64,000 bases of DNA from Candidatus Borrarchaeum weybense (GCA_019057385.1 JAHQJS010000008.1:140286-204285), one strand, 5' to 3'; positions 12,347 to 64,000 are shown, counted from the stretch's first letter. Notes: generated from the letters alone by a model not told the origin. Numbers and translations: made by a program.

Positions 12347-12598
12347 GTGAACTACCATCCAACAAGTTGAATGGCTTCCTGAATCATTCATCTCCCAGCG
12401 GAGCATGTCAAACAGGCTCAACGGGCAGTTCCTGCCCTGAACTTGATGTTAATTTGAGAACTGGCGAGTGTGACCTCAGCTCAATTCTACTTACTCTCTA
12501 GGTGCACATACCTATTTAAAGATTGTAGACTGTTGTAAAAGTGAAAACACGCACTTCATCCCCCAACTAGTTGGGGGGGGTCTTCTTGTGAGACACTC
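12347..12598 (-). mobile_element. ORF-less IS200/IS605-derived element A (scaffold family 4): left-end hairpin, TATA, omega-RNA-like scaffold, right end ...GGTAGTTCAC
   Basis: Right part homologous to 26589-26682; left part homologous to 63869-64000. Confidence 0.8.
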
Positions 12599-12690
12599 AT
12601 ACAAACATAACTAGTATCTCATCAAAATCTTTTAGAGGTTGTTTCTTAACTGTTTATGAAATTTATCTAAAAAACTATCTTTGTGATTTA

Positions 12691-13830
12691 ATGAACTTTG
12701 ATGTTGTTATTGTGAGATATTCTGGAGAAATTGGAATTAAAGGAAAACAAACTAGAAAATGGATGGAAAAAATACTTACAGATAACATCAGAATAAAACT
12801 TGAAAAAGAAGAACTTGACGTAAAAGAAATCATTCGCAAATATGGTAGGATCTACATATATGGTAAAAACCCAAAAGCGATAAGCAAAACTGTTTCGAAC
12901 GTGTTTGGAGTTGTTTCGACAAGCCCAGCAATAATAGTTGACTCAGATGTAGATGAGATCTGTAAAACTTCCAGAAAGGTCGCAGAAGAAATCTTAGATG
13001 CAGGCGATTCTTTTAGAATTACTACTAGGCGAGTTGGTACACATCCCTTTACTTCAGAGGATATCTCTATCAAGGCTGGCGCGGCAGTACTCGATCAAAT
13101 GTCTGGAAAGGGAGTTTCTGTAAATTTAAATACCCCCGACAAGCAAATTTTTATTGAAATTAGACATGAAATGGCATACCTATTTCATGAAGTAATAAGT
13201 GCAGTAGGAGGTATGCCTACTGGCACTCAGGGAAAAATTGCGATTATAATCTCGTGTGATGAGTTAGGCTGGATTGCAGCCTTCTTAATAATGAAAAGAG
13301 GCTGTGAGCCTGTTCCTATAATCTTTAATATCCATAATTCGCTGAATAGCAGTAATCTTCCCGAAAAAATTCCTTATTTATCAGCGCTAAAAACATTTAT
13401 TCCCTCTGAATTTTCAGTATTTTTAGTTCCTTTTACAGCAATCCTCGAAGAATTGAAGCAATTGATTCCCAAGGAATCATTATACCTTTTTTGCAGGAAA
13501 TTACAATTACAAATTGCAGAGCATTTATGTAAACAATTTGACATGAAAGGCATAGTGACAGGTGATCTGTTAGATTGCCCAGAAAAATCTAAAATCTATA
13601 ATTTGGTTGATACCAGCGTAAAACTGCCCATATATCGACCCTTAATTTCTCTTGATGCAGAAAAATTAACTAAATACAAAAACCTTTTAGGCATCAGTGG
13701 CAATGTTTCTTGCCCTTCTTTATGCAAAGATACTACTATAAGTCTCGCGAAAATTAATCAAACTAGAAAAATAACCTTTGAGAAAAGAGTTAATAGTATT
13801 ATTGAAGAAATGGATATAATACACATTTAA
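12691..13830 (+). CDS. thiI: ThiI-like THUMP-domain tRNA-modification protein with degenerate PP-loop
   Basis: VRYSGEIGIKG, FGVVS.SPA, V.L..PD, GG.P.GTQG; canonical SGGxDS replaced by SCDELG. Confidence 0.75.
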   Translation: MNFDVVIVRYSGEIGIKGKQTRKWMEKILTDNIRIKLEKEELDVKEIIRKYGRIYIYGKNPKAISKTVSNVFGVVSTSPAIIVDSDVDEICKTSRKVAEEILDAGDSFRITTRRVGTHPFTSEDISIKAGAAVLDQMSGKGVSVNLNTPDKQIFIEIRHEMAYLFHEVISAVGGMPTGTQGKIAIIISCDELGWIAAFLIMKRGCEPVPIIFNIHNSLNSSNLPEKIPYLSALKTFIPSEFSVFLVPFTAILEELKQLIPKESLYLFCRKLQLQIAEHLCKQFDMKGIVTGDLLDCPEKSKIYNLVDTSVKLPIYRPLISLDAEKLTKYKNLLGISGNVSCPSLCKDTTISLAKINQTRKITFEKRVNSIIEEMDIIHI

Positions 13831-13874
13831 CGTAGACGGCGGGAAGTCCCTTCCGAGAGAGAGAAGGTAGTCAC
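13831..13874 (+). mobile_element. 44-bp minimal IS605-derived element B (left-end half fused to right-end half)
   Basis: TTTAA + 7 nt + GGCGGGAAGTCCC...GGTAGTCAC; same left-end geometry as the tnpB element and element K. Confidence 0.7.
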
Positions 13875-14005
13875 AAATTCACAAAGTCTGCTTCAAATTT
13901 ACCCCTTGCCAACTATTGAACTGATAGGATGAAAAAAGGATGTAATGAGGCAATTCCCCATTGGAGTATAAAGCACTGAATTTGTGAATTATAAGCACAT
14001 GGAGT

Positions 14006-14494
14006 TCAGAGTATATATGTTCCGCTAAATACCTGCGTATTTTGAGTGTCATAGAGAGTTATTGTAACAGGTTGGTTTGCTGCAAAAACATTATCAGTTA
14101 TAGTCACATCGATAGTTAAGGAGTCTCCTACCGGAACGACGAAATCCTGATCAGTTGAAGCATCGTAATATATTGTCCCTGTGGAAGTTTCTCTAACAGT
14201 ACTTAGAGTCCGCTCACTTCCATCATATTCTATGATGGAAGTATCTACATCAATTGTTACTGATTGCCCACCTGTATTCCGTATAGTGAAGAATATTGTA
14301 TCACCATCTAACATTGTGACATCAAGAACCTCTACCTTTGCTTGGGTAACACTACCGAGTATCCCTTGCGTGTATGCAAACACAGTAACACTTGCAGCTA
14401 CGGCAATAGCTATAAGTAGGATGACTGCAATTACTGGGGAGACAGCTTTTTTCGATTTTATAATAGCTTTTAATTTGTTGGAGTAGCTATTCAT
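14006..14494 (-). CDS. Type IV pilin 1 (major-pilin-like)
   Basis: KSKKA|VSPVIAVILLIAIAVAASVTVFAY; F.IRNTGG motif. Confidence 0.9.
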   Translation of the reverse strand: MNSYSNKLKAIIKSKKAVSPVIAVILLIAIAVAASVTVFAYTQGILGSVTQAKVEVLDVTMLDGDTIFFTIRNTGGQSVTIDVDTSIIEYDGSERTLSTVRETSTGTIYYDASTDQDFVVPVGDSLTIDVTITDNVFAANQPVTITLYDTQNTQVFSGTYIL

Positions 14495-15477
14495 AGTACC
14501 ATCACGTTATTATTTTATTCACAATCCTCTTTATTATTTTTGTTCTTTATACTTTGGAGAATAGATGCCTAAAAACTAGTTCAGTCTTATATAAGTCTTC
14601 GATGTACATTTTACTTGTAGCCAAGCGAGAAGTCTCCCCGGTTCACGGGGGAGATGAACCGCAGTAATTCCAGACTGGCTATAGAGCAGGGATGTCACCT
14701 TGAGTAATTGATTATATACGGGGCATAGGGAATTGACGCCTGTGGACCTGAGACCTCTGTAACCCATAATAGGGATACTCGTAAATCAGTTTTTAAAAAA
14801 GATACACTTTGATGAAAAGGTTAATCACTTCATTGAAAGAGTAAAGCGAAAAATAATATGATGAATGCAGAATAAATGAATTTATGAACCCGTAAGACTA
14901 TTTGTAAAAACTGCAGGACACGCCGATATCGGTCTTGTGCCAATTTAATCTCTAAGTCTTGAAAAGCTTAAGTTTATCTGATAATGCCAAATTACTTTTC
15001 ATCCTTTTTTCCAAAAGATTTGCGATTCTTCTAGTATATTGCTGATCAAAAGTGCACTTATTTTATAAGACTTTTTAGATTTGACTCTATCCTTCGTGAA
15101 AATCTTCGTAAGGCATCGAATTTTTCATAACATTTTAGTCAATTTACCAAAAAAAATATAATTAAGCTTTGAAGTGATTATTATTGAGGAGTTTGATAAA
15201 CGAAAAATTGCTATCTGTAAAGTAGATAGACTCTTAATTCTCTTATGTCATAAGACATAAGAGAGTTGGATCAAAAAAAAAAACACAAACAACTCATAAC
15301 CGAAAAAGGTGGAGATTTATTGAGAAAGACTCTTCTCAAGATGAAAAGGATGATGAAATCTAGGAAAGCAGTATCTCCAGTGATTGCAGTGATCTTGTTA
15401 ATTGCCATTGCCGTAGCTGCAAGTGTTACTGTGTTTGCATACACGCAAGGGATACTCGGTGGTGTTACCCAAGCAAA
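14337..15477. repeat. 71-bp inverted repeat (14337-14407 / 15407-15477, 1 mismatch) inside the two divergent pilin genes
   Basis: Manual alignment: ATTGCCGTAGCTGC...CCCAAGCAAA, 70/71 identical. Confidence 0.95.
14615..14776 (+). mobile_element. Truncated IS605-derived element C (family 2), right end missing
   Basis: TTAC + 8 nt + AAGCGAGAA left-end hairpin; TACGGGGCATAGGGAATTGACGCCTGTGG matches the family-2 scaffold. Confidence 0.7.
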
Positions 15478-15904: not shown

Positions 15905-16076
15905 GAACTCGTAACCTAGCGCCACTCTATCTTTTTATTTTTTTTATTCTTTCAATACTAAGAAACTGAAACTATTTTGGGGGATCCATTTCTCCAAACC
16001 GAACTGGGCCACTAGTTCTGGGTATTTATAATGGAAATGGGAATATGAAGGAAATCAAAACATTAAATACAGCCTC

Positions 16077-16363
16077 GTGAACTACTACTCACTAAAGCAG
16101 GTTGCTTCTGCCCTCATCGACCGTTCTTTCAACACGGTTAAACACAAGTAATCAGTTTATCGACAGTTCGGGGTGTCTAAGGATGTCCTCGTCCCTTTAC
16201 TAACGAGACACTTGAATATCCTTTCCCACAGGGACGTTATCGTTTGTGATCCTACCAGAGGTAGTGTATCCCTACGTTCCCTTCGATATCCATCAGTATA
16301 GTCAAAAGAAACTGCGAAAGTGAAAAAAACAACGCAATTCATCCCCTCCCCAACCAGTTGTCT
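16077..16363 (-). mobile_element. ORF-less IS605-derived element D (scaffold family 3)
   Basis: Ends ...AGTAGTTCAC on the minus strand; scaffold homologous to element L; GGGGATGAATTGCG left-end motif. Confidence 0.75.
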
Positions 16364-16368
16364 GTAAA

Positions 16369-16570
16369 GTGAGCTACCTCATGCTGAAGCTATGAGTCTT
16401 CTTGCTTCAATCACCAGACTCGATCTCCTTGCGGGTTACGGAGGTCTCGATGTCCACAGGGGTGAATTCCCTACGCATCATAGGTACTCATAGTCTCACT
16501 AAAAAACTATATATAACCAACGCCATTCATCACCACGCTAAAGTGTTGGTGCGTTCTTGCTTAGCTACCC
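16369..16570 (-). mobile_element. ORF-less IS605-derived element E (scaffold family 2)
   Basis: Homologous along its length to H (21836-22040) and M (55628-55835); TTAC upstream of the left end. Confidence 0.85.
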
Positions 16571-16618
16571 GTAAGATATTACTTAAATCTTGGATACAAT
16601 AAAAGTGGGTGTGTAAAG

Positions 16619-17400
16619 ATGATTGACAAGGAGAGCGTGAGGAAAGTCTGCCTACCCGACGGAGAGGCCTGCTTCAAGTATCTATGTGAAGTTAGGTCCG
16701 GAAGCAAGTCTGGAGGCGGCGTTACGTGCCTGCACTGTGGGAGCAAGGAGACGATAAAAAAAGGAAAAGAGGCCAAAAGGGGCTCAGTAATATTATTACA
16801 ACGGATGCGAGACTATCTTCAACAACTTGACAGGAATGGTGTTCGAACATCGCCACTCCCCCTGAAGAGATTTTTTACATCATCACGGAGATGGCGGCAA
16901 AGACCACGGCACAGATAGCCAGGTAATTGTATAGAGATTATTATTCTGTCCTCGACTTCGTTCACAAAGTTCAGGGTTTGGCTTCTAAACCGGTCGAGGA
17001 TGTTACACTTGAGGGCATACGTGAAATTGACGAGATATACGTTATGGCTGGAGAGAAGAGGAGAAAACAGAAGAACACCAGAGAACGAGGTAAGGCTTCC
17101 TGTGCTTCGGAATCTGACGAAGAAAAACGTTCAAAAGAAATTGAGAAGGTTATGAACAGGATTGTGGTACTTAATACTAATAACTACAGGACCTATAAAG
17201 GGATGATTAACAAAAAACAGCATCATAGTCACAAGGTGGTCAACCACTCTGAAGTACCCTAAAGGCGATGTTCACGTGAATACTTGCGAGAACAGGCACA
17301 GTTTTTTTGAGGAGTTGGCTCTTAAAGTTCAGAGGCGTCTTCAAATGCTACCTTCAGGGTTGCCTCGAACTTCTTGCCCTCACCCTTTACAGGAAAGAAT
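16619..17400 (+). pseudogene. Frameshifted IS1595-family (ISXO2-like DDE) transposase remnant
   Basis: Fragments across frames: CLHCGS Zn ribbon, FNNLTG.VFE, EIDEIYV, Y..YKG, HKVVNHSE, VHVNTCENRHS, FRGV. Confidence 0.8.
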
Positions 17401-17486
17401 GGTTTAATTAAGATCATAAGTAATAATTAATAGACATGAACATATTAAGATGATAGATATATAAGAAGGTATGTCGAGTCAATATT

Positions 17487-20464: not shown

Positions 20465-20563
20465 ATCTTTTACCTTTTTATATTTGCTTTATTTCTAGTT
20501 CTCACTCTGTTTTTAACACTTAAGCCTGATTTAGTTTACTCAAGAGGCGGACAGAGGATTATC

Positions 20564-21329: not shown

Positions 21330-21698
21330 ATGGAGGAAAAAGAAGGTGCATTACTAAGAATTCTTAAGGAGCTTAGAACAACAGTTGCATCAATAGAAGC
21401 GGCAGCAATAGTTAGCGTGGAAGGATTACCTATAACTAGTGACCTTCCTGGCGACATTGACGAAACGCGAATTGCTGCTATGACTGCTGCCATGCTTTCG
21501 CTAGGCGAAAGAGCAGCGATTGAGCTTGGCAAAGGTGAATTAGAAAGAATTTTTGTAGAAGGAAAAGATGGACACGTGATTGCGAGCGGTGCTGGAGAAA
21601 ATGCGGTGTTAACTGTTAGCACAATAAAAGGGGCGAAATTAGGGCTAATATTTTTAGAAATGAAACGTGCAGTAGAGAAAATATCTGAAATTCTCTGA
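21330..21698 (+). CDS. Roadblock/MglB-like protein
   Basis: IEAAAIVSVEGLPI, RIAAMTAAMLSLGER, KLGLIF. Confidence 0.92.
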   Translation: MEEKEGALLRILKELRTTVASIEAAAIVSVEGLPITSDLPGDIDETRIAAMTAAMLSLGERAAIELGKGELERIFVEGKDGHVIASGAGENAVLTVSTIKGAKLGLIFLEMKRAVEKISEIL

Positions 21699-21830
21699 CA
21701 TACTCCCACAGTTAAAGCAGTGAGGTTCTACATTTCTATGGTGAGAAATGAGGGGCGTGCCACCGCCCTGTTAACGACTCCCGCAGAGAGGAGTTCTCCC
21801 TGAGCGAGCCCTATATTTCCATTGATAATA
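21695..21830 (-). mobile_element. IS605-derived right-end/scaffold fragment G (family 5)
   Basis: Minus strand ends GAACCTCACTGCTTTAACTGTGGGAGTATGTCAG, a typical tnpB right-end hairpin. Confidence 0.65.
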
Positions 21831-21835
21831 ATTGC

Positions 21836-22040
21836 AGACAATTAAGCAAGAAAGCACCACCGCTTTAGCGTGGTGAGGAATTGCGTGGTGTTTATATAGT
21901 TTTTGGTAATAACACTCTTTGAGTACCTACGGGGCGTAGGGAATTTACGCCTGTGGAGATAAGACCTCCGTAACCCGTCAAGGGGATCGAGTCTGTCGTA
22001 GAAGCAGGAAGCCTCGAGGCTTTAGCACGAGGTAGCTCAC
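21836..22040 (+). mobile_element. ORF-less IS605-derived element H (family 2): left end, TTTATATA box, scaffold, right end GGTAGCTCAC
   Basis: Near-identical scaffold to element M in the opposite orientation. Confidence 0.88.
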
Positions 22041-22351
22041 CGAACTACACTGGACCACACCACAGGGGCTTCATCTTCTGTGATCCTACCAGAGGTCTTG
22101 TATCCCTGCCATCCCTGCCTTCCCTCTGATAGTCATACGTTGATTGATGCCTTTATGCACAGCCCCAGAGTCTATACCATCTCTCTGTCTTACCCACCCT
22201 CCACCAGACTGTGCGGCAATGACCACTTTACAGAGTGGGCCAAAACTATTTAAGTGTTAGGGAGACCCCGTGATGAAAATGATGGCAGTGAACATCAACT
22301 ACCGCAATTCATCCCACACCTGAAGCAGTGGGCTTTCTTGCTTAGCTACCT
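22041..22351 (-). mobile_element. Degenerate IS605-derived element I
   Basis: Left-end flank matches element E (CTTAC.GGTAGCTAAGCAAGAA); TTAAATA box; shares TGTGATCCTACCAGAGGT with element D. Confidence 0.7.
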
Positions 22352-22522
22352 GTAAGTTGTCCATAATAATACCCAAATGGAACTTTTTCTTTTTAAAACC
22401 TAAAAAAGGTTTAAATGAAAACGTGTCGTCAATAAAATGGTTTATAAGTTATATAGCTAAATGAACATTTATTATTTTCATATCAATATTCAAAGAGCTC
22501 GTTTCTCGAAAAAGAGCGTGAG

Positions 22523-26557: not shown

Positions 26558-26678
<121 letters not shown>

Positions 26679-26682
<4 letters not shown>

Positions 26683-28700
26683 GTTTCGAGTATTTTAGAG
26701 TTTCCTGAAGGCAGAACCCTTGTAATTTCATCCACAGATAGTTTTTTAATCTTATTTTTATCATCATCCTTTGCATGTCTTAAAAGAATTTCCTTAATGT
26801 GTCGTGCCAATTTGCCGCTAGAAATCTCTCCTGGAACTACAGTGATATAGTTTTCCGTTTGATTTGATATTGCAGGAAGGGGGCCGCTAAGTGGTAGTGC
26901 AAAATCATTCTCTATTTTAACACCTATAGCTATTTTTAGTGGATTATTTTTTAAAAATGTCCTCTCACCACGAACTATAACGCCTCCTTTTGGAATATAT
27001 TCACCAGAAGGTGCGGTTTCCGAAACTTGAGTTGCTTTGACATAATAAACGTCTCCTGCGCCTAAACCACTTTTCCATGCTCTTGAATATGAAACAGCAA
27101 ATTGTGCAGCTTCTCTTAACGTAGTTTCGGGTACATCGTTTCCTTCAGTTTTTATTACTACATAGGGCGCGCCTGCCATTTCAGCGTGCATAAATAAATC
27201 CTCGGTATCCATATATCGTTTGAAGAGGCTCTTATTAGACGTTATATCACGACCGCCAAGGACTAAGAAATCATCTGATGAAATAAAGAATCGAAATTTT
27301 TCATACCATTTTCTTTTTCGTTTCTTTTTTAGAGCAACGTCTTCTTCGGCCTTGTCATGTCCTTTTTCCTTTAATTTCTCGATTTTTTGTGATGTTTTTT
27401 TCAATGCTTTCTTTGCGCCTTCAATTTTTGAAGCGGTCTTCTTGGCAGAATCGTACCAGTTAGAGGCTACTTCTTCAATGGACTGATGAAGACGAAAAAC
27501 TATCTCTTTTTCATTTAAAGTAATTATAATTGCTTTATTTGCAGGATCTATATTTTTAATCATTTCTGCTGATCTTATCCCATTCGTTTTTCCTTCTTCT
27601 ATCCTTTTTTGTATTTCATCCCATGTAACTCTCTTATCATGCGCAGAGGAAATTGTATGTAAGATTTCGCGAAGATCAGCACTATATAAATAGATTTCTT
27701 CAGCAATTTGTTTCATTTCGATTTCTGATTTTTGCAGTTCTTCAATTGTCTTTGCTTGTTGATCACGTATTCTTTCCAGTTTTGCTAGTTTGTCTTCCGC
27801 TGGACTAGTAATTGCTTCTGCTATCTCTGATTTTTCAATCTCACCGAAGTAGAAATCTAGTCCTTCGTTGAAAGATGATATTTTTTTAGTTACAAAATTT
27901 GAATACGTCATTAAATGAATAGGTGTGACATCAAAAGGAGTAGAATTTTCGTAAATTATTTCAGGGCTAAGATGTCCCTCTTTTAAGGGTTGGAAGATTG
28001 ATTTTATCGCTTCCATTATAACAAGAACATGCTCATCATCGATGTTCGAAGATGGTGTTGTCTTTTCAATTTCTGCTCTGAGACAAATCTCTTCAGCAAA
28101 AATCTTCTTGATGTTGAAAAAATGTGTTAGAGTACGAGCAATATTCCCTGTGGATGATTCTATAATTTCCTTCAACCTATTCTTAGTAATTTGGAATATG
28201 TCAATTCCTCGGCTTGGTGGATATTGATAATTTCTTTTTGGGAGAACATCTCGGTCTTTCATTTTCCTATAATGCCGAGCGATTAGAATTTGTTCATTAG
28301 GATCAAGAAGCAGTATATTCCCATGACCGAAAAGTTCAATAATGAGTGTATATTTATCCGTCAGTTGCCCTACTTCGAGTAGTATTATTCGATCGAAATT
28401 ATATTGACGAATGTCAATTACGCGTCTATTCCTCAAATATTTCCGTAACGTGTGACAAAAATTAGGCGGTATCTTTGGCGGGGTTCTCACATATTCAGTG
28501 AGATGAAACCTTTGAAAGGGTGAAGTCTGAACTAGGACATTAAAACTGCCCTCATCGGTCTTTCGAAGTTTCCAAATAAACATAGAATCAATTTGATAAA
28601 TATTATCAATCCATGAATCTTTGATTCTATCTTTGCATTCCATTAAAACTGCAAATATATCAACATTCGACATATCGTTCTTCATTATCTCGTGCCTCAA
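26679..28700 (-). CDS. rqcH: Ribosome quality-control factor RqcH/NEMF (NFACT family); start possibly ATG 28685
   Basis: F...LRKYL, FDRI, ELFG.GNI, WYEKFRFF.SS...LV.GGRD, PSGEY..KG. Confidence 0.93.
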
Positions 28701-29073: not shown

Positions 29074-29222
29074 GTGAACTACCCCACTCTTACGGATGGG
29101 GCTTCCTGCGAGTCCTCCTAACTCCCTACGATGGGAGAAACTTTCGTTTTACACTTGGCTGTGTGTCGCAGATTATCGAGAAATACCCGATAGCCTGTCC
29201 ACTTGGCATTCTGTGATAGGTA
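29074..29222 (-). ncRNA. Predicted omega-RNA scaffold overlapping the tnpB 3' end (predicted guide GATGAAGGGCATTTGACA...)
   Basis: Position at the right end; hairpins conserved with compensatory changes in element K. Confidence 0.75.
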
Positions 29223-30362
29223 ACGTTTCATGAGGATGATTGCACTATTTTTGTCCCTCTCTATCACGTTACCACAGTCACATCTCATAACTCGTTTCCA
29301 AATTGGCATAAAGTGCTGTTTGCCGTACATCCAACATTCTTTGGTCGAGTTTCGTTCGTCACTTTCTATTGTCCTTTTACCTACTCGCCTCGACTTGTAG
29401 GTTAGAAAATGCACGAACCGTCCCAGCGCCCCTGTGTTCTGTGTAGCGCGGTTCAACCCCGCTCTCATGGCTTTCGGCACCTTGTTCGACTGTGCCATGC
29501 ATTTGACTTCTAGCTGGCCTACGATCAGAGTGTTAGCTTTGGTGTTCTCCACCAGTTTCCTGCTGAGTTTATGTTGAAAATCACGTGTCTGATCATCCCG
29601 CTTCCGCTCGTATTTCTGTTTGATCTGATTGAGCAATTTCCATCTGTTGCTGAATTTCTTACACTTATCCTTCCGCGATTGTACCTTGGCGATTTTCGGA
29701 TTCCAATATTTGTCCGGGCGCTGATTTTTCACCATCAAGAACTTGCTCTGGGAATTTACTGCCGTAACGATATGGGTAATGCCGAGGTCGATGGCTTGAT
29801 ACCGACCGTTATCTACAAAGGGGGGTTCTTCCAACTCATAGGTGATGGTCACAAAATATCGCCCTCTATGTGATGAGATGGCGACTTGTTTTACCTGTGT
29901 ATCGTCAAAAGAGAATTTGTCAGGGATGGTAAATTCCAGTGGTATATCATTGTATTTGTGGGAAAAGGTAATCATTCCGGGTTCGATCTTGAACCCTGAC
30001 TGGTTATACACCATAGTGGTGAAGTAGTTTTTTCCTTTGAATCGCGGGAGACAGGCCTCGATGTGCCCGTTTTTTCGAAGGGCAAAGAACGACTCGTAAT
30101 CAGCAGCTAATGCCCTGAGAGCATACTGTAAGACCTTAGAATACACCCACTTATACTCTGGGAATTGCTCTTTGATGAGTGGCAGGTCGTTTTGCTGCTT
30201 GCGGTAATTCACACCCTTTGCTCCAGTTCTATAGGCGTCCATTCTTTCAGCAAGGGCAAAGTTATAGATGAGTCTGCATTTTTCCGAGAGTTTCCAAAGC
30301 ACAGTTTTTTGTGCGTGATTCGGAAAGATCCTGATTTTCTGTGTGAGTTTCATGGATTTCAC
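29118..30362 (-). CDS. tnpB: RNA-guided endonuclease TnpB (rearranged RuvC-II type)
   Basis: N-terminal HTH (IYNFALAER), RuvC-I AIDLG, RuvC-II LIVGQL with alternative DERNSTKEC, RuvC-III ERDKNSA. Confidence 0.93.
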   Translation of the reverse strand: MKSMKLTQKIRIFPNHAQKTVLWKLSEKCRLIYNFALAERMDAYRTGAKGVNYRKQQNDLPLIKEQFPEYKWVYSKVLQYALRALAADYESFFALRKNGHIEACLPRFKGKNYFTTMVYNQSGFKIEPGMITFSHKYNDIPLEFTIPDKFSFDDTQVKQVAISSHRGRYFVTITYELEEPPFVDNGRYQAIDLGITHIVTAVNSQSKFLMVKNQRPDKYWNPKIAKVQSRKDKCKKFSNRWKLLNQIKQKYERKRDDQTRDFQHKLSRKLVENTKANTLIVGQLEVKCMAQSNKVPKAMRAGLNRATQNTGALGRFVHFLTYKSRRVGKRTIESDERNSTKECWMYGKQHFMPIWKRVMRCDCGNVIERDKNSAIILMKRYLSQNAKWTGYRVFLDNLRHTAKCKTKVSPIVGS

Positions 30363-30902
30363 CAGACTCTGATATTACTAGTTATACCCAAAAAGTCTAT
30401 ATAAGACCAGTGGCTTTCATCCCCTACCTGTCGGAGGGGGACTTCCCACCGATTAAGTTAAAAGATATTTGTCAAGTTAAACTTTTCAAGTATCCTCTTT
30501 TATTTTCAATATGTAAATAACAATGAAATCTCAGAAGTTTTGAGATTTCGCAATGTAGTATTCCTAGAAAAATGCTTTATTGAAAGAAATGTCAAATTTC
30601 CATAGAATATTTTCTTCGTATTCCGTTAAATAAACGCATTAACTATAAATAAAGACTATAAAAATAAAGATTAGATTAATAGACTTATCTTACGTAAACT
30701 ATAACTTTGTTAGCCTTGTTAAGGCTCTTTTAATTTGCAGAACTTTTAGCTAAAAAATTCTATGGAATTTGAGAATTTCGCAAAAACGTTTAAATAGTCG
30801 AACGTCACTATGTAAGAGAATGTGAACCATTCAAATAAGATTGAGAAATATGAACTATCCAGATATAATTGTTAAGAGAATTGAGTTGAGTGAGGGAAAG
30901 AT

Positions 30903-45371: not shown

Positions 45372-45672
45372 TTTTATTGGCGGGAAGTCCCCTTGCGCCA
45401 GCTGGGGGATGAAAGCCGCAAGGTTTTTATAGTGTTTTGCACAGAAGAGTTCTGATGAATATCGAGAGGAAAGCAGGGATACAAGACTCTTGATAGGAAG
45501 GCAGTATGGTGTGATTTTGAAACCTGAGGGTTGCTATCACAGAATGCCAAGTGGACAGGCTATTCTCTTTAGAGGGTAATCTGCGACACACAGCCGAACG
45601 TAAAACGAAAGTTTCCCGCAAGGGTTGGGAGGACTCGCAGGAAGCCCCATCTGAAAGGGTGGGGTAGTTCAC
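45372..45672 (+). mobile_element. ORF-less element K: left end + TATA + omega-RNA scaffold cognate to the 29-kb TnpB + right end
   Basis: About 140 nt homologous to the tnpB 3' end with conserved hairpins; same TTTAA + 7 nt left-end geometry. Confidence 0.9.
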
Positions 45673-47144: not shown

Positions 47145-47472
47145 CTAATTTCGCAAGAAGACTCCTCAACTTGTGGGGGGGATGAATTGCGGTAGAGTGT
47201 CTTACTTTCACGCAGGTCACCCTAAACTTAAATAGTAGTTACCTATCATCTAAATGTATAGTATGCTGAGGTGTCTGGCTTGGCGTTAAGGGCGTAAACA
47301 AGACACAGTACCGATGAGGGTACTGTCGGACCTCAAGTGTCCCTTGAGGGACGGGGGCTGCCGTGGACCAGCCCGAAATGTCGATGACTAGGTTTAATGT
47401 GACCAACCGTGTTGGCTAAGCAGAACAGCCTAGGAGGGCAGAAGCTACCTAACTTGTTTGGTGGTAGTTCAC
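47145..47472 (+). mobile_element. ORF-less IS605-derived element L (family 3) with a highly structured scaffold
   Basis: Left-end hairpin + TTAAATA; stems GTGTCT/AGACAC, ACAGTACC/GGTACTGT, CCTCAAG/CTTGAGG, GGGCTG/CAGCCC; ends GGTAGTTCAC. Confidence 0.85.
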
Positions 47473-50075: not shown

Positions 50076-52151
50076 ATGCGGATATTAACAAAAAAAAAGA
50101 CAATCTTTCTCTTCTTGTTAGTCATTTTGTTTACAATATCGATATTTTCAACACATCTCTCAGATGCTTCTGCTAGAATAACTGATTTACGTGTAATTAA
50201 ACCAAAAAAAGTTCATATGGGCAATCGTCTAAAGATTGAAGGAAGTGTACAATATCTTGGAACTGGTCTTCGTTCTTTTTATGTCTCACTCATGGTAAAT
50301 GAGACTCAAAATCAAACTGAAAAGATTTCAGTAGCGAATTTTCAAACAATAAATGTCTCATTCTTTTGGACACCTGAACGAAATGGAGTATATACAATTT
50401 CTTTGAGACTGTATAAATCGCCTTCTTCATTTGAGGAAAGCATCCCTCTCAATATTCATGTTGATTCTATCTCAGGTTATCAGAAATATACTATGGCACT
50501 TTACCACTTCAATGTTCAATATGTTCCAGGATCTACCACGATTGAAAATCGTATTATTGAGAAATCGTTTTACCCGCTCCTTAAAATGTATGAGCACCAT
50601 AGCACGTGGAGATGTAATATTGAACTAAGTGGCTACATGCTCGAAATTTTATATCACAAATACCCTCAATTATTAGATCTTCTAAAGAACCTGGTGAATG
50701 AAGGACAAATAGAACTTATAGTGAGTCATTACTCTGAGCAGTTGTTAGTAGCGTATCCACGAACAGATATGGCAAAATCAATAGAAATTTCAGACACAAT
50801 ACTTGATTCTTCAGATCTCGTTCGTTCTGGAGTATTTTTTGCACAAGAGAGCCAGTGGACACCTGGATATGCTGGATTGCTTAATACCTATGATTACAAC
50901 ACCGTAGTTGTATCGAGCGATCCATGGTATTATTATCTTCCGAATAGAATGAAAATGAACTCACCACTTTTTTATTTAGAGGATAACTCGTCACAGTCTC
51001 TTGGTTCTGATAAACGACTGTTAAATGTGCTTCTTCACAAAAAGGATGGAAATGTTAATGGTATAGATTACCACTGGGCTTATGCCTCTGATGGAGAAAC
51101 TGCTAATACCTTCGCTTATCAGAACAATTTTCGATACGATTCTCAAAAAGAACAAAATCACGAACAAAAATTGAGAAAAATTGCAACAGAATATCATTTT
51201 GTTTTTATCAGCGAATTTGTTGCCATGTTACGAGAAAAGAACGTTGAACGAGAAAAAATCCCAGTCATCCCAGAAGCAACTTGGAAAATGAGGAAAAGTG
51301 AAGGGGTTTGGCTATGGATGGGTAATAATAGCGCTCGTTATGAAGATGATGCCTTTATTCGAGCATATACGTATCGAGCACGACAAAAAGCGCTCGTAGC
51401 CGAATCATTACTTAAGATAACGAGAGCAAAGGGAATAGATGTCTCAGACGAAGAGCGAATGCTTCTCAACATCTGGAAGCAAATCTTACTTGCAGAGGTA
51501 TCAGATTCAACAGGATGGTTTCCATGGGAGATTGAAGTTAAAGAATCTGTTCGTCTGACAGATTTAGCACTAGAATCTCTGGATAATGTAATTGCGGAAT
51601 TGAAAATGAAATTAGGATATCAAGATAGTCTGTTAAAGGTAGATCCTTCTAAGAACACCATTTCAAAGGTTTCATCAATAAACAAACCTGTACTCGTTCC
51701 TACGCCTCCATTACATATAACTGTGAAAGGCGGTCCTTATCAAATTAATTATACTAAGGGAGAATTTGGTGTAACACTCAATATCAAGATGTTTCTTGAA
51801 AAGAAAAGCACAGTTGAAATCAGATTTCCTGCCGAAAATAGCATCATGTATTCTCCTAGTCTGGCAGAGAACACATTAATCACTTTAAATCCGTCAGATA
51901 TCCATGAAAATCCATATCTACCGCTTTCTAACGGTTTAGTGATAATTAATGGCAGTAAAGCCATTATAAAACATTGTGCCGAACGTCATATGGCAATGCA
52001 ATGGAATCGCGGCAAATATATCGTCTTTAAAGAAATAGCTGCCAGTGGGAATCTTACGTACTCCTTTACTTTTGTGGAGGCTACCGTTTATCACTTTACT
52101 TTCGTTGATATAGCAAATTCAATTAATGTCTATCCTGTATTGGTTATTTAG
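50076..52151 (+). CDS. GH57-like glycoside hydrolase, tandem copy 2
   Basis: Same length (691 aa) and motifs as copy 1. Confidence 0.72.
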   Translation: MRILTKKKTIFLFLLVILFTISIFSTHLSDASARITDLRVIKPKKVHMGNRLKIEGSVQYLGTGLRSFYVSLMVNETQNQTEKISVANFQTINVSFFWTPERNGVYTISLRLYKSPSSFEESIPLNIHVDSISGYQKYTMALYHFNVQYVPGSTTIENRIIEKSFYPLLKMYEHHSTWRCNIELSGYMLEILYHKYPQLLDLLKNLVNEGQIELIVSHYSEQLLVAYPRTDMAKSIEISDTILDSSDLVRSGVFFAQESQWTPGYAGLLNTYDYNTVVVSSDPWYYYLPNRMKMNSPLFYLEDNSSQSLGSDKRLLNVLLHKKDGNVNGIDYHWAYASDGETANTFAYQNNFRYDSQKEQNHEQKLRKIATEYHFVFISEFVAMLREKNVEREKIPVIPEATWKMRKSEGVWLWMGNNSARYEDDAFIRAYTYRARQKALVAESLLKITRAKGIDVSDEERMLLNIWKQILLAEVSDSTGWFPWEIEVKESVRLTDLALESLDNVIAELKMKLGYQDSLLKVDPSKNTISKVSSINKPVLVPTPPLHITVKGGPYQINYTKGEFGVTLNIKMFLEKKSTVEIRFPAENSIMYSPSLAENTLITLNPSDIHENPYLPLSNGLVIINGSKAIIKHCAERHMAMQWNRGKYIVFKEIAASGNLTYSFTFVEATVYHFTFVDIANSINVYPVLVI

Positions 52152-55226: not shown

Positions 55227-55631
55227 TTGACAATGAGTTTTTTTAAAATGATTACAACAGAGATTGATGTTTTGTTGACCACCGTACGAACCATAGAGCA
55301 AGGTAAAAGTGCTGATTCCGATAAAGAAAGCAAAAAATACTTCGATGAAGCCGCAATCGTGTTGTTACACACAGAAGATATGAAAAAATTAAGTGTAGAA
55401 AATAATAAACCTGTTAAGATACGTACGAAATATGGTGAAGTAGTTGTGAAAGTAAAAGAGTCAGAAGAAACTAAGGAAGGCATCGCATTAATTCCTGTTG
55501 GTCTTTGGGCTAATATGACGATGGGAAATTCAGTTCAAAGTAATGGAATTCCTCTTTTGAAGAATATTCCTGCAACGATCGAATCGACGGATGAATCACC
55601 AGAGGATATACAGCATCTCACAAGCATATGA
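55227..55631 (+). CDS. fwdD: Formylmethanofuran dehydrogenase subunit D
   Basis: T.RTIEQG, YGEVVV, G...IP.G.WAN, G.P..K. Confidence 0.85.
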   Translation: MTMSFFKMITTEIDVLLTTVRTIEQGKSADSDKESKKYFDEAAIVLLHTEDMKKLSVENNKPVKIRTKYGEVVVKVKESEETKEGIALIPVGLWANMTMGNSVQSNGIPLLKNIPATIESTDESPEDIQHLTSI

Positions 55632-55835
55632 GCTACCTCGTGCTAAAGCATCGCGGCTTCCTGCTTCAACGACAGACGCGATCCCCTTGCGGGTTACGGA
55701 GGTCTTATCTCCACAGGCGTAAATTCCCTACGCCCCGTAGGTACTCATCAAGAGTATGACCTATACACTATATAAACACAACTACAGCAATTCATCACCA
55801 CGCTGAAGCTGTGGTGCTTTCTTGCTTTTCTTCAT
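55628..55835 (-). mobile_element. ORF-less IS605-derived element M (family 2) inserted between fwdD and fwdA
   Basis: Homologous to H and E; TTAC upstream of the left end; right end supplies the fwdD TGA. Confidence 0.88.
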
Positions 55836-55864
55836 GTAAAAGCCCCGAAGGTAGGTACACTGAC

Positions 55865-57535: not shown

Positions 57536-57571
57536 CTGATATTTATATCTATGATCTTAAAACTGCATTTC

Positions 57572-60867: not shown

Positions 60868-61184
60868 ACTTAACCTCTCTTATAATGCCTTTTAGTCTTG
60901 ATGACGCTTTGTTAGCCATTCTTAGTGCACAATGGGTGATGTTTAATCATTATAGTAATTATTCTCGATTTCTCTTAGCCTTCAATCTTTAAATGACATT
61001 CGATTTTGGCACCTGAATGTTCGTTATAAATATTGCAAAATACTATGAGGATTATTTTCACTAATCTTTAAAATGACAGATGCATCTAAATTATAAAATT
61101 CTTATAGTGTTGCTTGAAAGGTAACTTTATTCAATACCCTTGCGGTGCATAAAGTGTCTACATAAATCCATTGAGGTAACAAGA

Positions 61185-61670: not shown

Positions 61671-61679
61671 GTTGATTAT

Positions 61680-62978
61680 ATGTCGAAAGAGATCTCTGAC
61701 GTGATATGTCCAGGTTGTGGAGTTCTCTGCGACGATATCAAGGTGAAGCTGGAGGATAATACAGTTGTAACAAACTATAATGCGTGTTCTAAAGGTAACG
61801 CGAAATTTCTTGATATCGCCTCTAATAGAATCCTTAATCCAACAATTATGACTGATAAAACCACTAAAGAAACTGATTTAGACTCTGCACTTTTGAAAAC
61901 AGCAGAAATATTGATTAATGCTGACTCCCCCCTCCTCTATGGCTGGAGCGCTACAACTTGTGAAGCACAAAGGCTTGGCATTCAACTTGCCAAAGAATTG
62001 AAGGGGATCGTAGATAGCACATCTTCATTCTGCCACGGCGTAACACTTTCAACTCTCATAGAGAACTCGTGGAGTACTGCAACTCTTGGTGAAGTCATGA
62101 ATAGGGCTGATGTGATCTTATATTGGGGTGCTAATCCTATAGAATCACATCCAAGGCATATGTCACGGTATAGTACAGTACCACGTGGTATTTTCAGACA
62201 AGCTGGAAAAGATGAGCGAACCGTTGTTGTTATAGATATCCGTAAAACACGAACTGCTAACATCGCAGATCGTTTTCTTGAAGTTGAACCTAACCGAGAT
62301 TTCGAACTAATTAGCGTTATGCGTTCTCTTTTGAACGGATATCGTCCAAATATAGACACTGTAGCAAATATTCCTTTAAAAGAAGTAGACCGACTGCTTG
62401 AACTAATTAAAGAAGCGAATTTTTGTACGATATTTTTTGGCTTAGGGTTGTTGATGAGTGCAGGAACATATCATAATATCTCTAGTCTTCTTTCATTTGT
62501 TGCCGAACTCAACCAATTTGCCAAAGTCGTTGCTATTCCCATGATTGGTCATTACAATATGATTGGATTTAATCAAGTATGCAGCTGGTTAACTGGATTC
62601 CCTTATGGCGTAGATTTTCGTAAAGAAGATCCCATGTTTAATCCTGGTGAAACTACAACTGCAGAACTATTACAGAAGAAAGAAATTGATGCAATGCTAT
62701 GTATTGCTTCTGATCCAGTTTCTACATTGCCTTATTCTTTAACCTCTTACCTAAAAGAGATCCCCGTTATCACGATGGAGCGCCAAATGACACCAACTAC
62801 ACGAATTTCAAAAATCGTCATCCCCGTAGCTCTGTCTGGAATTGAGGTTAGCGGCACCGCCTATCGAATGGATTCTGTTCCTCTTTATATGAAAAATATC
62901 ATCTCTCCACCAAATGGCATTTTATCTGATGAAATGATTCTGACAAAATTGTTGGAACTCGTTAAAGAAGCAAAATGA
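61680..62978 (+). CDS. fwdB: Formylmethanofuran dehydrogenase subunit B (Cys form)
   Basis: CPGCG.LCDD, AC..G..KF, SFCHG, TLGEV.NRAD....WG.NP..SHPRH.SRY, GHYN. Confidence 0.93.
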   Translation: MSKEISDVICPGCGVLCDDIKVKLEDNTVVTNYNACSKGNAKFLDIASNRILNPTIMTDKTTKETDLDSALLKTAEILINADSPLLYGWSATTCEAQRLGIQLAKELKGIVDSTSSFCHGVTLSTLIENSWSTATLGEVMNRADVILYWGANPIESHPRHMSRYSTVPRGIFRQAGKDERTVVVIDIRKTRTANIADRFLEVEPNRDFELISVMRSLLNGYRPNIDTVANIPLKEVDRLLELIKEANFCTIFFGLGLLMSAGTYHNISSLLSFVAELNQFAKVVAIPMIGHYNMIGFNQVCSWLTGFPYGVDFRKEDPMFNPGETTTAELLQKKEIDAMLCIASDPVSTLPYSLTSYLKEIPVITMERQMTPTTRISKIVIPVALSGIEVSGTAYRMDSVPLYMKNIISPPNGILSDEMILTKLLELVKEAK

Positions 62979-62996
62979 TTTTTAATGATTCTAAAA

Positions 62997-63863
62997 TCAC
63001 AATAACGGATCTGGCTGTTTGTGTTCAACTAGTTTTGGCAACCGTGCTCGTGTCACCAATAATTGGGAGTCTATTCTCACAATTCTGTTAGCAATGATTT
63101 TTTTCCCTTGTTCAGTTAACGCAAAAACTGGAATACCTACTCCAATTTGAAGTAATGCGTTTGGTCCAATGATTTCTCGAAGTGCTTTTGATGCACATCC
63201 CCAGATAAGATCGCATCCCTTTGCTAAAACTGATGCTTGATTGGGAGAAATACCAGTCGTGTGAACTGCTAAGATTGTTAACTTAACATCCAATTGTTTT
63301 TCATATTTCTTGAGTAAAGGAATTTTTTCAGCGTCAATTCCAGCAAGAGTTACTGCAACCTTATTAGCTAATGAGAATGCTCTTTTCACTCCTTCGACCT
63401 GATCTATTACGGCTGTCTTTGGGTTTAATACGATTCCACCTTTATTTTTCAGTTGATTTATTGTCTCTGGGATCGGTGATGTCTTTACCAATCCTGTCAT
63501 TCGAGCTCCAATTCCCTGAACTAGTTCTGGTGACTTCACTAATACGGTTCCCGCACCATCACACGCACACACCGTAATATCTATCAATCCATTGTGCATC
63601 GCATCCCTTAGCATCTCTGATGCTCCAAATGGCACATCCCTCCCTTCATATTCTAGCACTCTATTTTTTGTAAAAAAACCAAACTCTTCTATTTTCATTT
63701 CGACGCTATCACGAATGCTTTCTGGAGTCTCTTTTACCCCACCATAAAATTCATGTCGTAAAGGGCAATGAGTCACTAAAGGCTTTCCAACATCTATAAC
63801 TTTCCCGTTCTTTATGACAACTCTAGCTTTTGCAACTTCAATTATATGTTCATCTTCACTCAT
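62997..63863 (-). CDS. DUF2099 / methanogenesis marker protein 8-like
   Basis: DEHIIE, CPL, FGASE, CDGAGTV, QGIGARM.GL..TSPI, HTTG, CASK. Confidence 0.85.
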   Translation of the reverse strand: MSEDEHIIEVAKARVVIKNGKVIDVGKPLVTHCPLRHEFYGGVKETPESIRDSVEMKIEEFGFFTKNRVLEYEGRDVPFGASEMLRDAMHNGLIDITVCACDGAGTVLVKSPELVQGIGARMTGLVKTSPIPETINQLKNKGGIVLNPKTAVIDQVEGVKRAFSLANKVAVTLAGIDAEKIPLLKKYEKQLDVKLTILAVHTTGISPNQASVLAKGCDLIWGCASKALREIIGPNALLQIGVGIPVFALTEQGKKIIANRIVRIDSQLLVTRARLPKLVEHKQPDPLL

Positions 63864-63868
63864 TTTAT

Positions 63869-64000
63869 CATGTCTCCGAAAGAAGACCCCCCAACTTGTT
63901 GGGGGGATGAATTGCGTGTGTTACTTGTTTCACTTTCACGATACTCCCTAATCTTTAAATACGGTTTTGCAGCGATTCTAAGTAGAATTGAGCTGAGGTA
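63869..64000 (+). mobile_element. Left part of IS605-derived element N (family 4), cut by the window edge
   Basis: Left-end hairpin CCCCCCAAC..GTTGGGGGGATGAATTGCG, TTTAAATA, and TAAGTAGAATTGAGCTGAGGT shared with element A. Confidence 0.8.

What the first reader, a model, noticed from the sequence alone, without database searches (positions are those of the whole stretch)
12347..64000. Dense population of ORF-less omega-RNA-like cassettes (about 13 in 64 kb, 4-5 scaffold families): candidate trans-acting guide repertoire
Seen: elements at 12347, 13831, 14615, 16077, 16369, 21695, 21836, 22041, 26589, 45372, 47145, 55628 and 63869 carry IS200/IS605 end hairpins but no ORF. The complete ones have left end, TATA box, GC-rich stem-loop scaffold and right end (TCAC/TCAT). 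Scaffold families: 1 (K, cognate to the local tnpB), 2 (C,E,H,M), 3 (D,L), 4 (A,J,N), 5 (G). Established: TnpB uses a right-end-derived omega-RNA whose guide is the flanking DNA. Inference: these keep the parts needed to express a guide RNA and could borrow TnpB/TnpA in trans, each giving a different guide. Families 2-5 predict further TnpBs elsewhere in the genome.
Basis: partly seen in the sequence, partly recalled or inferred. Interest (0 to 1): 0.85.

Follow-up and report, generated by a model that had tools for sequence, protein, structure and literature searches.

The report
ORF-less IS605 omega-RNA mini-transposons
The window, from a Borrarchaeum-like Asgard archaeon, is peppered with short gene-less offshoots of IS200/IS605 transposons that keep both transposon ends, the old tnpB promoter and the guide-RNA scaffold; they are real and mobile, but of a kind already described (PATEs / standalone omega-RNAs).

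Summary
The elements exist, and most of the stated boundaries are right to the base. They are dispersed repeat families of the genome. By my count it holds about 117 IS605-type right ends: 30 beside a tnpB and 87 without one.

Six window copies are complete: A, E, G, K, L and M. "F" and "H" are the two halves of one element split by G. B, C, D and J are fragments. N is cut by the contig end. The family grouping was partly wrong: G belongs with E and M, and H belongs with F.

Every family matches the ends of a tnpB cluster elsewhere in the genome, which has about 40 tnpB places and one tnpA.

Mobility is shown. Same-genus genomes carry clean empty sites for K and L, after TTTAA/TTTAC and TTTAT, with no duplication. 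Sediment contigs lack G or the whole F/H element.

The TATA box is the former tnpB promoter, fused to the scaffold. The commonest family carries a shortened scaffold found only in ORF-less copies (34 copies, none tnpB-linked).

Expression and TnpB loading could not be tested. The guides have no second full match in the genome. The best reading is therefore selfish homing with TnpB supplied in trans, not a host guide library.

This is a new member of a known kind. First-stage notes from other windows of this genome describe the same elements.

The parts
12347..12598 (-). Element A. Complete ORF-less element of the family cognate to tnpB cluster 2. It has an LE hairpin, a TATA-like box (about 12513-12520), a scaffold, an RE hairpin and an end TTCAC. 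The flanking target motif is GTAT.
   Evidence: There are 13 complete copies of 235-251 nt in the genome. A copy sits at the orthologous site in a Ca. Borrarchaeum yapensis MAG.
13831..13874 (+). Element B. A remnant of about 40 nt that resembles an RE hairpin plus end (..GGTAGTCAC). It has no LE, promoter or scaffold.
   Evidence: It has only one other 40-nt hit in the genome.
14615..14783 (+). Element C. Decayed copy of the E/G/M family. It follows TTTAC and has an LE hairpin, TATA and the 5' half of the scaffold, but no RE hairpin.
   Evidence: The segment 13735-14783 is missing in the relative L001.
16077..16368 (-). Element D. Diverged single copy related to L (tnpB cluster 8). The RE and scaffold are present. 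The LE hairpin lacks its second arm and abuts E.
   Evidence: (I9).
16369..16571 (-). Element E. Complete 203-nt copy of the short E/G/M family. It follows TTAC (complement at 16572-16575) and ends TCAC.
21695..21835 (-). Element F. RE half of a 452-nt ORF-less derivative of the cluster-4 IS. It is 93% identical to the 3' end of the tnpB element at C5:168854-170065. Its last bases supply the TGA stop of the Roadblock/LC7 gene (21696-21698).
   Evidence: A contig of run X5 lacks the whole F/H element (table 5c).
21836..22040 (+). Element G. Complete 205-nt copy of the short E/G/M family, nested inside the F/H element after TTGC.
   Evidence: Contigs in sediment runs X3 and X5 join 21833 to 22039, skipping exactly 205 nt.
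22041..22351 (-). Element H. LE half of the same element as F. It has an LE hairpin, a TATA-like box and interior sequence, and follows TTAC (complement at 22352-22355).
26589..26683 (+). Element J. RE-proximal 95 nt of a cluster-2 element behind a (CAT)n tract, as in the 3' UTR of full-length copies. It has no LE and no promoter. Its end overlaps the stop codon of the NFACT gene on the other strand.
29074..30457 (-). Full-length IS1341-type element. tnpB is at 29118-30362 (414 aa; HTH, OrfB_IS605 and zinc-ribbon/TNB domains). The RE ends TTCAC at 29074. The LE follows TTTAA.
   Evidence: It belongs to cluster 7, which has seven copies.
45372..45672 (+). Element K. Complete 301-nt ORF-less derivative of the cluster-7 IS (the local tnpB family). 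It is inserted after TTTAA.
   Evidence: Empty sites occur in same-genus genomes G002 and G004.
47145..47472 (+). Element L. Complete 328-nt ORF-less element whose RE and scaffold are cognate to tnpB cluster 8. It is inserted after TTTAT.
   Evidence: Empty sites occur in G002 and G004.
55628..55835 (-). Element M. Complete 208-nt copy of the short E/G/M family. It follows TTAC (complement at 55836-55839) and ends TCAT. The complement of its end gives the stop codon of ORF 55227-55631.
63869..64000 (+). Element N. LE hairpin and TATA-like box of an A-type element, after TTTAT. The rest is lost because the contig, and so the window, ends here.

Best explanation
**What they are.** These are non-autonomous IS200/IS605 elements, also called palindrome-associated transposable elements (PATEs) or standalone omega-RNA elements. 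Each arose from a tnpB-bearing IS by loss of the coding region. That loss joined the left end, which carries the tnpB promoter's TATA box, to the last 90-150 nt of the element, which specify the omega-RNA scaffold and the right-end hairpin.

**Shown here.**
- They are dispersed families whose ends are homologous to tnpB elements of the same genome.
- They insert precisely 3' of TTAC, TTTAT or TTTAA without a target duplication.
- They are present or absent between related genomes and between environmental populations.
- The scaffold is the best-conserved part of the element.

**Inferred.**
- The TATA box drives a transcript of about 115-170 nt that starts near the 5' edge of the conserved scaffold. 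It runs through the right end into the flank, which becomes the guide.
- A cognate TnpB made elsewhere in the genome loads this RNA. It cuts the scar-less empty site (target motif plus guide match) left when the single TnpA excises the element. Recombination with a sister copy then restores the element.

On this reading the cassettes are selfish riders on both TnpA and TnpB, not a host guide library.
For: **Repeat families and cognate tnpB.**
- Family membership and hit counts.
- Each family matches both the 3' and 5' flanks of one tnpB cluster.
- The genome has about 40 tnpB places and one Y1 tnpA.

**Precise insertion.**
- K and L are absent from same-genus genomes. The flanks there are 92-97% identical and rejoin at TTTAA/TTTAC and TTTAT with no duplication.
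- G is absent in contigs of two sediment runs, and F/H is absent in one.
- TTAC precedes most of the 34 aligned copies of the E/G/M family. TTTAT precedes the A-type and L-type copies.

**Promoter.** The TATA-like box of A-type elements aligns with the TATA upstream of full-length cluster-2 tnpB genes. TATA boxes are kept in all families.

**Scaffold conservation.** Mean pairwise column identity per 15-column block is 0.79-0.91 (short class) and 0.80-0.99 (long class) across the scaffold, apart from one loop/indel block at 0.55 in the long class. It is 0.36-0.49 in the linker and the spacer between TATA and scaffold, and 0.27-0.48 in the flanks.

**Structure.**
- The 5' hairpin covaries between subfamilies, CCUAC/GUAGG against GGUAG/CUACC. 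The RE hairpin shows A-U to G-C exchanges. Five of 22 consensus pairs carry double changes.
- A long-range helix just 5' of AAGCC plus the RE hairpin recurs in all four families with different sequences.
- A-subfamily copies carry compensatory changes in two stems.

**Shortened scaffold.** The central arm of the tnpB-linked omega-RNA region is about 35 nt shorter in the ORF-less E/G/M family and is capped by a GCAA-type loop. That form occurs 34 times and never beside tnpB.

[quoted passage not shown] PATEs that encode omega-RNAs, and the homing model, are described in PMC10055086.
Against: - No RNA data could be obtained, so transcription, 5'/3' ends and TnpB loading are untested.
- Within the ORF-less family itself, covariation is weak because the copies are too alike. 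96.3% of cells are paired against 95.8% in shuffles, and only 3 pairs show double changes.
- The canonical RuvC-II glutamate aligns with Q in cluster 6, with G in clusters 7 and 4, and with G or I in cluster 8. An acidic residue lies nearby. Such rearranged sites are known and thought to be active (PMC10691335), but activity here is unproven.
- The local tnpB has Q where its six paralogues have E or D.
- The shortened scaffold may or may not still fit the cluster-6 TnpB.
- Only one tnpA is present, and it belongs to the K-type family. Mobilisation of the other families by it is assumed.
Confidence: 0.78

Rival explanations
1. The elements are inert deletion derivatives. Only the DNA ends matter, as substrates for TnpA. 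The scaffold is carried along or is needed at the DNA level, and no functional guide RNA is made.
For: - No expression data could be obtained.
- Within-family covariation is weak.
- Several window copies are plainly decaying: B, C, D and J.
- PATEs as short as 52 bp appear to be mobile in Haloquadratum without any scaffold (PMC3119063).
Against: - Conservation reaches about 115 nt in from the right end. It is higher there than in the LE hairpin, while the adjacent spacer has drifted to near flank level.
- Five independent families all kept both a TATA box and the scaffold.
- The central arm was shortened, but its base pairing and a tetraloop-like cap were kept. This is what selection on an RNA predicts, and it is not what a TnpA DNA substrate requires.
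Confidence: 0.15
2. The cassettes are a host-domesticated guide set. Their RNAs direct a TnpB, possibly a nuclease-impaired one, to chosen loci for regulation or defence. Alternatively they act as antisense RNAs on neighbouring genes.
For: - Some TnpB clusters lack the canonical RuvC-II glutamate, and the local copy has Q there.
- Several elements read outward, antisense, into the 3' ends of adjacent genes: F/H into Roadblock, M into ORF 55227-55631, J into NFACT.
- A is kept at the same site in a second species.
Against: - None of 117 guides has a second match of 20 nt. The 16-nt hits with one mismatch occur at about the rate expected by chance.
- The elements are insertion-polymorphic rather than fixed.
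- The tnpB genes are themselves multi-copy and sit inside IS ends. They are not single-copy in a conserved host context.
Confidence: 0.06

Closest known systems
Palindrome-associated transposable elements (PATEs) of Haloquadratum walsbyi and other haloarchaea (PMC3119063)
   Same: Both are gene-less and have subterminal palindromes like those of IS605-type elements. Both lack inverted terminal repeats and target duplications. Both arise by core deletion of IS1341-type (tnpB) elements, outnumber the parent IS, often nest in one another, and coexist with few or no intact tnpA.
   Different: The host is an Asgard (Borrarchaeum-like) archaeon. The copies here consistently retain a promoter plus a 90-150-nt scaffold, whereas many Haloquadratum PATEs are ends-only, some just 52 bp. 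That paper predates the discovery of omega-RNA.
Standalone omega-RNAs of OMEGA systems (Altae-Tran et al. 2021, as summarised in PMC10691335)
   Same: Both are mobilised loci that carry an omega-RNA but no effector or transposase. Both lie in genomes that also hold effector-bearing loci. Function in trans with a compatible effector has been shown experimentally for the published cases.
   Different: Function has not been tested here. One family carries a shortened scaffold that is not found beside any tnpB in the genome.
PATE-like minimal elements of Geobacillus stearothermophilus and the TnpB homing model (PMC10055086)
   Same: Both share LE/RE with tnpB elements, rely on one candidate tnpA acting in trans, and encode omega-RNAs that would need TnpB in trans. 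In both, the guide is the flank, so the target is the empty donor joint.
   Different: The host is archaeal, so the promoter is a TATA box. There are several target motifs (TTAC, TTTAT, TTTAA). The excess of ORF-less copies is much larger (87 against 30).
Sense-overlapping transcripts / omega-RNAs at the 3' end of archaeal IS1341 tnpB genes (PMC12558985 and work cited there)
   Same: The scaffold is homologous to the 3' end of tnpB and the right end.
   Different: Those RNAs are made from tnpB-bearing elements. Here the coding region is gone and the tnpB promoter is fused to the scaffold.

Membership tests
Non-autonomous IS200/IS605 element (PATE) | Subterminal hairpins at both ends and no terminal inverted repeats | tested here: met
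   LE and RE hairpins are visible in every complete copy and are conserved across each family.
Non-autonomous IS200/IS605 element (PATE) | Insertion 3' of a short target motif, with no target-site duplication and a scar-less empty site | tested here: met
   Empty sites for K (TTTAA/TTTAC) and L (TTTAT) occur in same-genus genomes. G and F/H are absent in sediment contigs. TTAC precedes most of the 34 aligned copies.
Non-autonomous IS200/IS605 element (PATE) | Too short to encode a transposase or TnpB | tested here: met
   The complete copies are 203-328 nt, and 452 nt for F/H. None shows Pfam transposase signal, and only spurious short ORFs are present.
Non-autonomous IS200/IS605 element (PATE) | Ends homologous to a tnpB- or tnpA-bearing element in the same genome, with a Y1 transposase available in trans | tested here: met
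   Each family matches both flanks of one tnpB cluster. One PF01797 gene lies at C7:194221-194586. Its ability to move all families was not tested.
TnpB omega-RNA (guide RNA gene) | Scaffold derived from the tnpB 3' end and right end, ending at the transposon boundary so that the flank becomes the guide | tested here: met
   Alignment of ORF-less copies with tnpB 3' ends.
TnpB omega-RNA (guide RNA gene) | Conserved secondary structure supported by covariation | tested here: inconclusive
   Between subfamilies, 5 of 22 pairs carry compensatory double changes, and the helix positions are shared by four families. Within the ORF-less family alone the signal is weak. No R-scape-type test was run.
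TnpB omega-RNA (guide RNA gene) | Transcribed, and bound by a TnpB that then cuts target motif plus guide-matched DNA | not testable with these tools
   No RNA holder was listed for this organism. Biochemistry is needed.
TnpB omega-RNA (guide RNA gene) | Cognate TnpB with an intact RuvC triad | tested here: inconclusive
   The RuvC-I D and RuvC-III D are present in all full-length copies. The canonical RuvC-II E is present in clusters 0, 2, 3 and 5. It is replaced, with an acidic residue nearby, in clusters 4, 6, 7 and 8. Such rearrangements are known (PMC10691335).
Curated Rfam RNA family | Match at or above a family's gathering score | tested here: not met
   No match in the window at gathering thresholds. 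No match at E<=1 over K and L. Only sub-threshold RAGATH-18 hits (25 bits against a cut-off of 44.9) on two copies.

The most novel reading that the evidence does not exclude
The abundant E/G/M family may be an independently evolving omega-RNA gene lineage. Freed from the tnpB reading frame, it shortened its central arm by about 35 nt, kept its own TATA promoter, and now exists only without tnpB (34 copies against 12 tnpB-linked and 13 ORF-less right ends of the parental scaffold types). It would be a hyperparasite that exploits both TnpA and TnpB of its parent IS, and a natural minimal omega-RNA for an archaeal TnpB with a rearranged RuvC-II site.
Probability: 0.3. Interest if true: 0.55.

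Novelty: new member of a known kind. Interest (0 to 1): 0.38.

Why it matters
The result documents, in an Asgard archaeon, how far omega-RNA genes can separate from their nuclease genes. ORF-less guide-RNA elements outnumber tnpB elements about three to one while a single tnpA remains. This fits the view that TnpA, TnpB and omega-RNA are modular parts that can be supplied in trans.

The naturally shortened scaffold with its matched TnpB cluster gives a concrete pair to test for compact genome-editing guides. The clean empty sites provide ready-made target-motif-plus-target substrates.

It does not change the current picture of how these systems work.

Tried and rejected
- **RNA evidence.** Two searches for public runs were made. 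No RNA holder was listed, so expression could not be examined. The DNA holders were used only for presence/absence of insertions.
- **Rfam.** There was nothing at gathering scores and nothing at E<=1 over K and L. Two sub-threshold RAGATH-18 hits on E/G/M-type copies are treated as chance.
- **First family alignments.** The first automatic alignments of right ends were disturbed by outliers for two families. They were redone with curated sets.
- **Single-sequence folds.** Folds of the window copies are not clearly better than shuffles (z -0.9 to -2.3). Only the tnpB-linked scaffolds stand out (z -2.9 and -3.9). Single-sequence folding was therefore not used as evidence for the ORF-less copies.
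- **Guide search.** The first script timed out. The BLAST version found only matches of 16-19 nt with at most one mismatch, at about chance frequency. The idea that guides aim at other genomic loci was dropped.
- **Considered and rejected.**
  - CRISPR-like array: the copies are not tandem and have no repeat-spacer order.
  - Ordinary MITEs of DDE transposons: there are no inverted terminal repeats and no target duplication.
  - Small protein genes: only spurious short ORFs are present.
- **The 57-nt module shared by D, H and K** recurs only in a few K-type copies and upstream of one tnpB. Its role stays open.


Full report
**Source and setting.** The window is C8:140286-204285 of a 4.18-Mb, 8-contig genome. 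A ThiI-like gene and 7 kb around it are 89% (protein) and 92% (DNA) identical to a MAG of Candidatus Borrarchaeum yapensis. That genus belongs to Promethearchaeati, the Asgard archaea. The genome holds 41 places that match the TnpB zinc-ribbon/TNB domain, 40 of them above the Pfam cut-off, and a single Y1 transposase gene. At 50% identity or more the TnpB proteins fall into nine clusters. The large ones have 13 copies (cluster 2), 12 (cluster 6, some of them fragments), 7 (cluster 7, which includes the window's tnpB at 29118-30362) and 3 (cluster 8).

The inventory, however, needs correction.
- Six copies are complete: A 12347-12598 (-), E 16369-16571 (-), G 21836-22040 (+), K 45372-45672 (+), L 47145-47472 (+) and M 55628-55835 (-).
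- "F" (21695-21835) and "H" (22041-22351) are the right and left halves of one 452-nt minus-strand element. G has inserted into it.
  - F is 93% identical to the 3' end of the single cluster-4 tnpB element, and H is 80% identical to its 5' end.
  - A 903-nt contig from another sediment sample joins 21833 to 22039, skipping exactly 205 nt.
- B is a 40-nt right-end-like remnant.
- C lacks a right end.
- D has half a left hairpin.
- J is the last 95 nt of a cluster-2 element behind its (CAT)n tract.
- N is cut by the contig end.

Family assignment by homology is as follows.

| Window copies | Cognate tnpB cluster |
|---|---|
| A, J, N | cluster 2 |
| C, E, G, M | cluster 6 |
| K | cluster 7 |
| D, L | cluster 8 |
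| F + H | cluster 4 |

**Anatomy.** Alignments of all complete genomic copies show a common plan. A 4-5-nt target motif precedes the element: TTAC for the cluster-6 family, TTTAT for the cluster-2 and cluster-8 families, and TTTAA for cluster 7. Then come:
1. a left end with a G+C-rich hairpin followed by ATGAA;
2. a TATA-like box (for example TTTATATA or CTTTAAATA);
3. a poorly conserved spacer of about 20-25 nt;
4. a conserved structured region;
5. AAGCC, the right-end hairpin, and GGTAGYTCAC (rarely TCAT).

Similarity stops abruptly beyond that point. In the cluster-2 family the left end and TATA box align with the region upstream of full-length tnpB genes, where the TATA box lies about 70 nt before the start codon. 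The cassette promoter is therefore the former tnpB promoter. The right part aligns with the tnpB 3' end and downstream sequence. In cluster 6 the element ends only 10 nt after the stop codon, so the whole scaffold lies inside the reading frame of the parent.

**Mobility.** In two same-genus genomes the flanks of K and L are 92-97% identical and rejoin directly. K's site reads ...TTTAA (or TTTAC) followed by the sequence that lies right of K. L's site reads ...TTTAT followed by the sequence right of L. Neither shows a duplication or a scar. In two further, more distant same-genus genomes the BLAST rows also leave out both elements.

Sediment metagenome contigs show alleles without G and without the whole F/H element. 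In the F/H-free allele the Roadblock/LC7 gene ends ...I-L-stop, with the stop inside the target-motif region. In the window it ends I-L-stop with the TGA supplied by the element's last bases.

Element A, by contrast, sits at the same site in the Ca. B. yapensis MAG. It differs at about 7 of 170 scaffold positions (my count), and its first 24 flanking bases are identical. The cluster-6-type family occurs 16-47 times in each of the four same-genus genomes and hardly at all outside the genus.

**Census.** I searched for right ends that have a stem of at least 6 bp, the AAG motif and the terminal decamer. This gives 117 sites: 30 beside a tnpB frame and 87 without one. The count is conservative, because it misses D and J. 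The window has 7 such sites against a mean of 1.8 per 64 kb. The best fixed bin has 6.

| Scaffold type | tnpB-linked | ORF-less |
|---|---|---|
| Cluster-6 parental (6a + 6b) | 12 | 13 |
| Shortened E/G/M type | 0 | 34 |
| Cluster 2 | 12 | 20 |
| Cluster 7 | 5 | 4 |
| Cluster 8 | 1 | 4 |
| Unassigned | 0 | 12 |

**Is the scaffold an RNA under selection?** Three lines of evidence bear on this.
1. *Rate heterogeneity.* In the 17 short and 17 long copies of the E/G/M family, mean pairwise column identity per 15-column block is 0.79-0.91 and 0.80-0.99 across the scaffold, apart from one loop/indel block at 0.55 in the long class. It is 0.36-0.49 in the linker and the TATA-to-scaffold spacer, and 0.27-0.48 in the flanks. 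The TATA block itself scores 0.70. Conservation thus begins about where a TATA-driven archaeal transcript should start, and it extends about 115 nt. I judge that more than a TnpA end hairpin should need.
2. *Comparison with the tnpB-linked scaffolds.*
   - The 5' hairpin is CCUAC...GUAGG in subfamily 6a and in the ORF-less copies, but GGUAG...CUACC in 6b.
   - The right-end hairpin exchanges A-U for G-C.
   - A long-range helix (CCUGU with GCAGG) closes a central arm.
   - Five of 22 consensus pairs show double compensatory changes, with few broken pairs.
   - In the parents the central arm is a long hairpin, which itself differs in sequence but not in pairing between 6a and 6b. In the ORF-less family it is about 35 nt shorter, its basal pairs are different but still complementary, and its tip is a CCC/GGG stem capped by GCAA or variants of differing length.
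   - A 35-nt change is not a multiple of three. This form therefore could not sit in the parental reading frame, and it occurs only without tnpB.
3. *Shared helix across families.* A helix at the equivalent position just 5' of AAGCC, plus the right-end hairpin, is found in all four families with different sequences: CCUG/CAGG, CUGCGA/UCGCAG and CUGUC/GGCAG.

Against this, covariation inside the ORF-less family alone is weak (96.3% of cells paired against 95.8% in shuffles). Single-sequence folds of the window copies are also unremarkable.

**The proteins.** The window's TnpB aligns over 370 residues with ISDra2 TnpB and a derived designed nuclease. The RuvC-I and RuvC-III aspartates are conserved in all full-length copies. 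The canonical RuvC-II glutamate is present in clusters 0, 2, 3 and 5. It aligns with Q in cluster 6, with G in clusters 4 and 7, and with G or I in cluster 8, each with an acidic residue one to three positions on. Rearranged RuvC-II sites with an alternative glutamate are known, are common in archaea and are thought to be active (PMC10691335). Activity here is not shown. In the window's own copy the position where its six paralogues have E or D is Q.

[quoted passage not shown] TnpA excises the element and leaves target motif plus flank. An omega-RNA whose guide is that flank directs TnpB to the empty site, and repair from a sister copy restores the element. An ORF-less element that keeps a promoter and scaffold can use this protection with TnpB supplied in trans.

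The 117 guides have no second 20-nt match in the genome. The shorter matches occur at about chance frequency. Nothing therefore points to other targets. The rival that only the DNA ends matter is weakened by the conservation pattern and by the structure-preserving shortening. The rival of host domestication is weakened by the insertion polymorphism and the lack of targets.

**Comparison with what is known.** PATEs were defined in Haloquadratum as gene-less IS605-type derivatives formed by core deletion, and they are more numerous than their parents (PMC3119063). Standalone, mobilised omega-RNAs lacking effector and transposase were reported and shown to work in trans (PMC10691335, citing its reference 1). 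Meers et al. note that PATEs often encode omega-RNAs that would need TnpB in trans (PMC10055086). What this locus adds is an Asgard example with several families and a three-to-one excess of ORF-less copies. It also adds explicit promoter capture, documented empty sites, and one family with a shortened scaffold never linked to tnpB.

First-stage notes from other windows of the same genome describe the same kinds of elements. They agree with this reading but are not independent evidence.

**Verdict.** The finding is real, well defined and correctly recognised in kind. It is over-counted, partly misgrouped and over-rated in novelty.

Noticed in passing
window 29118-30362 (-): The local TnpB has Q in the motif LIVGQLEVK, where its six paralogues have E or D (GEL/GDL). 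This may be a nuclease-impaired copy. RuvC-I D and RuvC-III D are intact.
   Followed up: partly
window 21696-21698, 55629-55631, 26679-26681: The complement of the right-end terminus (..TCAC, TCAT or GTCAG) supplies the TGA stop codon of adjacent genes: Roadblock/LC7, ORF 55227-55631 and the NFACT gene. In the F/H-free allele seen in a sediment contig, the Roadblock gene ends with the same last residue, using a TAA in the target-motif region.
   Followed up: partly
window 13735-14783; also 14337-14477 vs 15337-15477: A segment of about 1050 bp is missing in the Ca. Borrarchaeum yapensis MAG. It holds the last 96 nt of the ThiI-like gene, remnant B, a pilin-like gene (Pilin_N) and element C. 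The two neighbouring pilin/flagellin-like genes share an inverted 141-nt N-terminal repeat at 84% identity.
   Followed up: partly
window 16619-17410 (+): A string of broken frames follows element E. The first has a weak, sub-threshold match to the IS1595 transposase zinc ribbon (E 0.009). This is probably a decayed IS of another family.
   Followed up: partly
window 16226-16282, 22060-22116, 45468-45498: A module of about 57 nt is shared, in the same orientation relative to LE and RE, by D, H and K, which belong to different families. It recurs in three other K-type copies and upstream of one cluster-7 tnpB. Its origin and role are unknown.
   Followed up: partly
window 47497-49572 and 50076-52151: Two tandem 691-aa paralogues with a glycoside hydrolase family 57 domain. 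Their DNA is 75-92% identical, rising towards the 3' end.
   Followed up: no
window 26560-26590: A (CAT)n microsatellite precedes J. The same tract lies between the stop codon and the right-end region in full-length cluster-2 elements, with variable length.
   Followed up: no
window 64000 = end of contig C8: The contig breaks inside element N, as expected when an assembler meets a dispersed repeat. Element counts from this assembly are therefore lower bounds.
   Followed up: no
window 12347-12598 and L001 about 5650-5900: Element A and its guide region are conserved at the orthologous site in a second species. Changes in its hairpins keep pairing (G-C to G-U). Its outward-reading promoter points at the start of gene 11451-12269.
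   Followed up: partly
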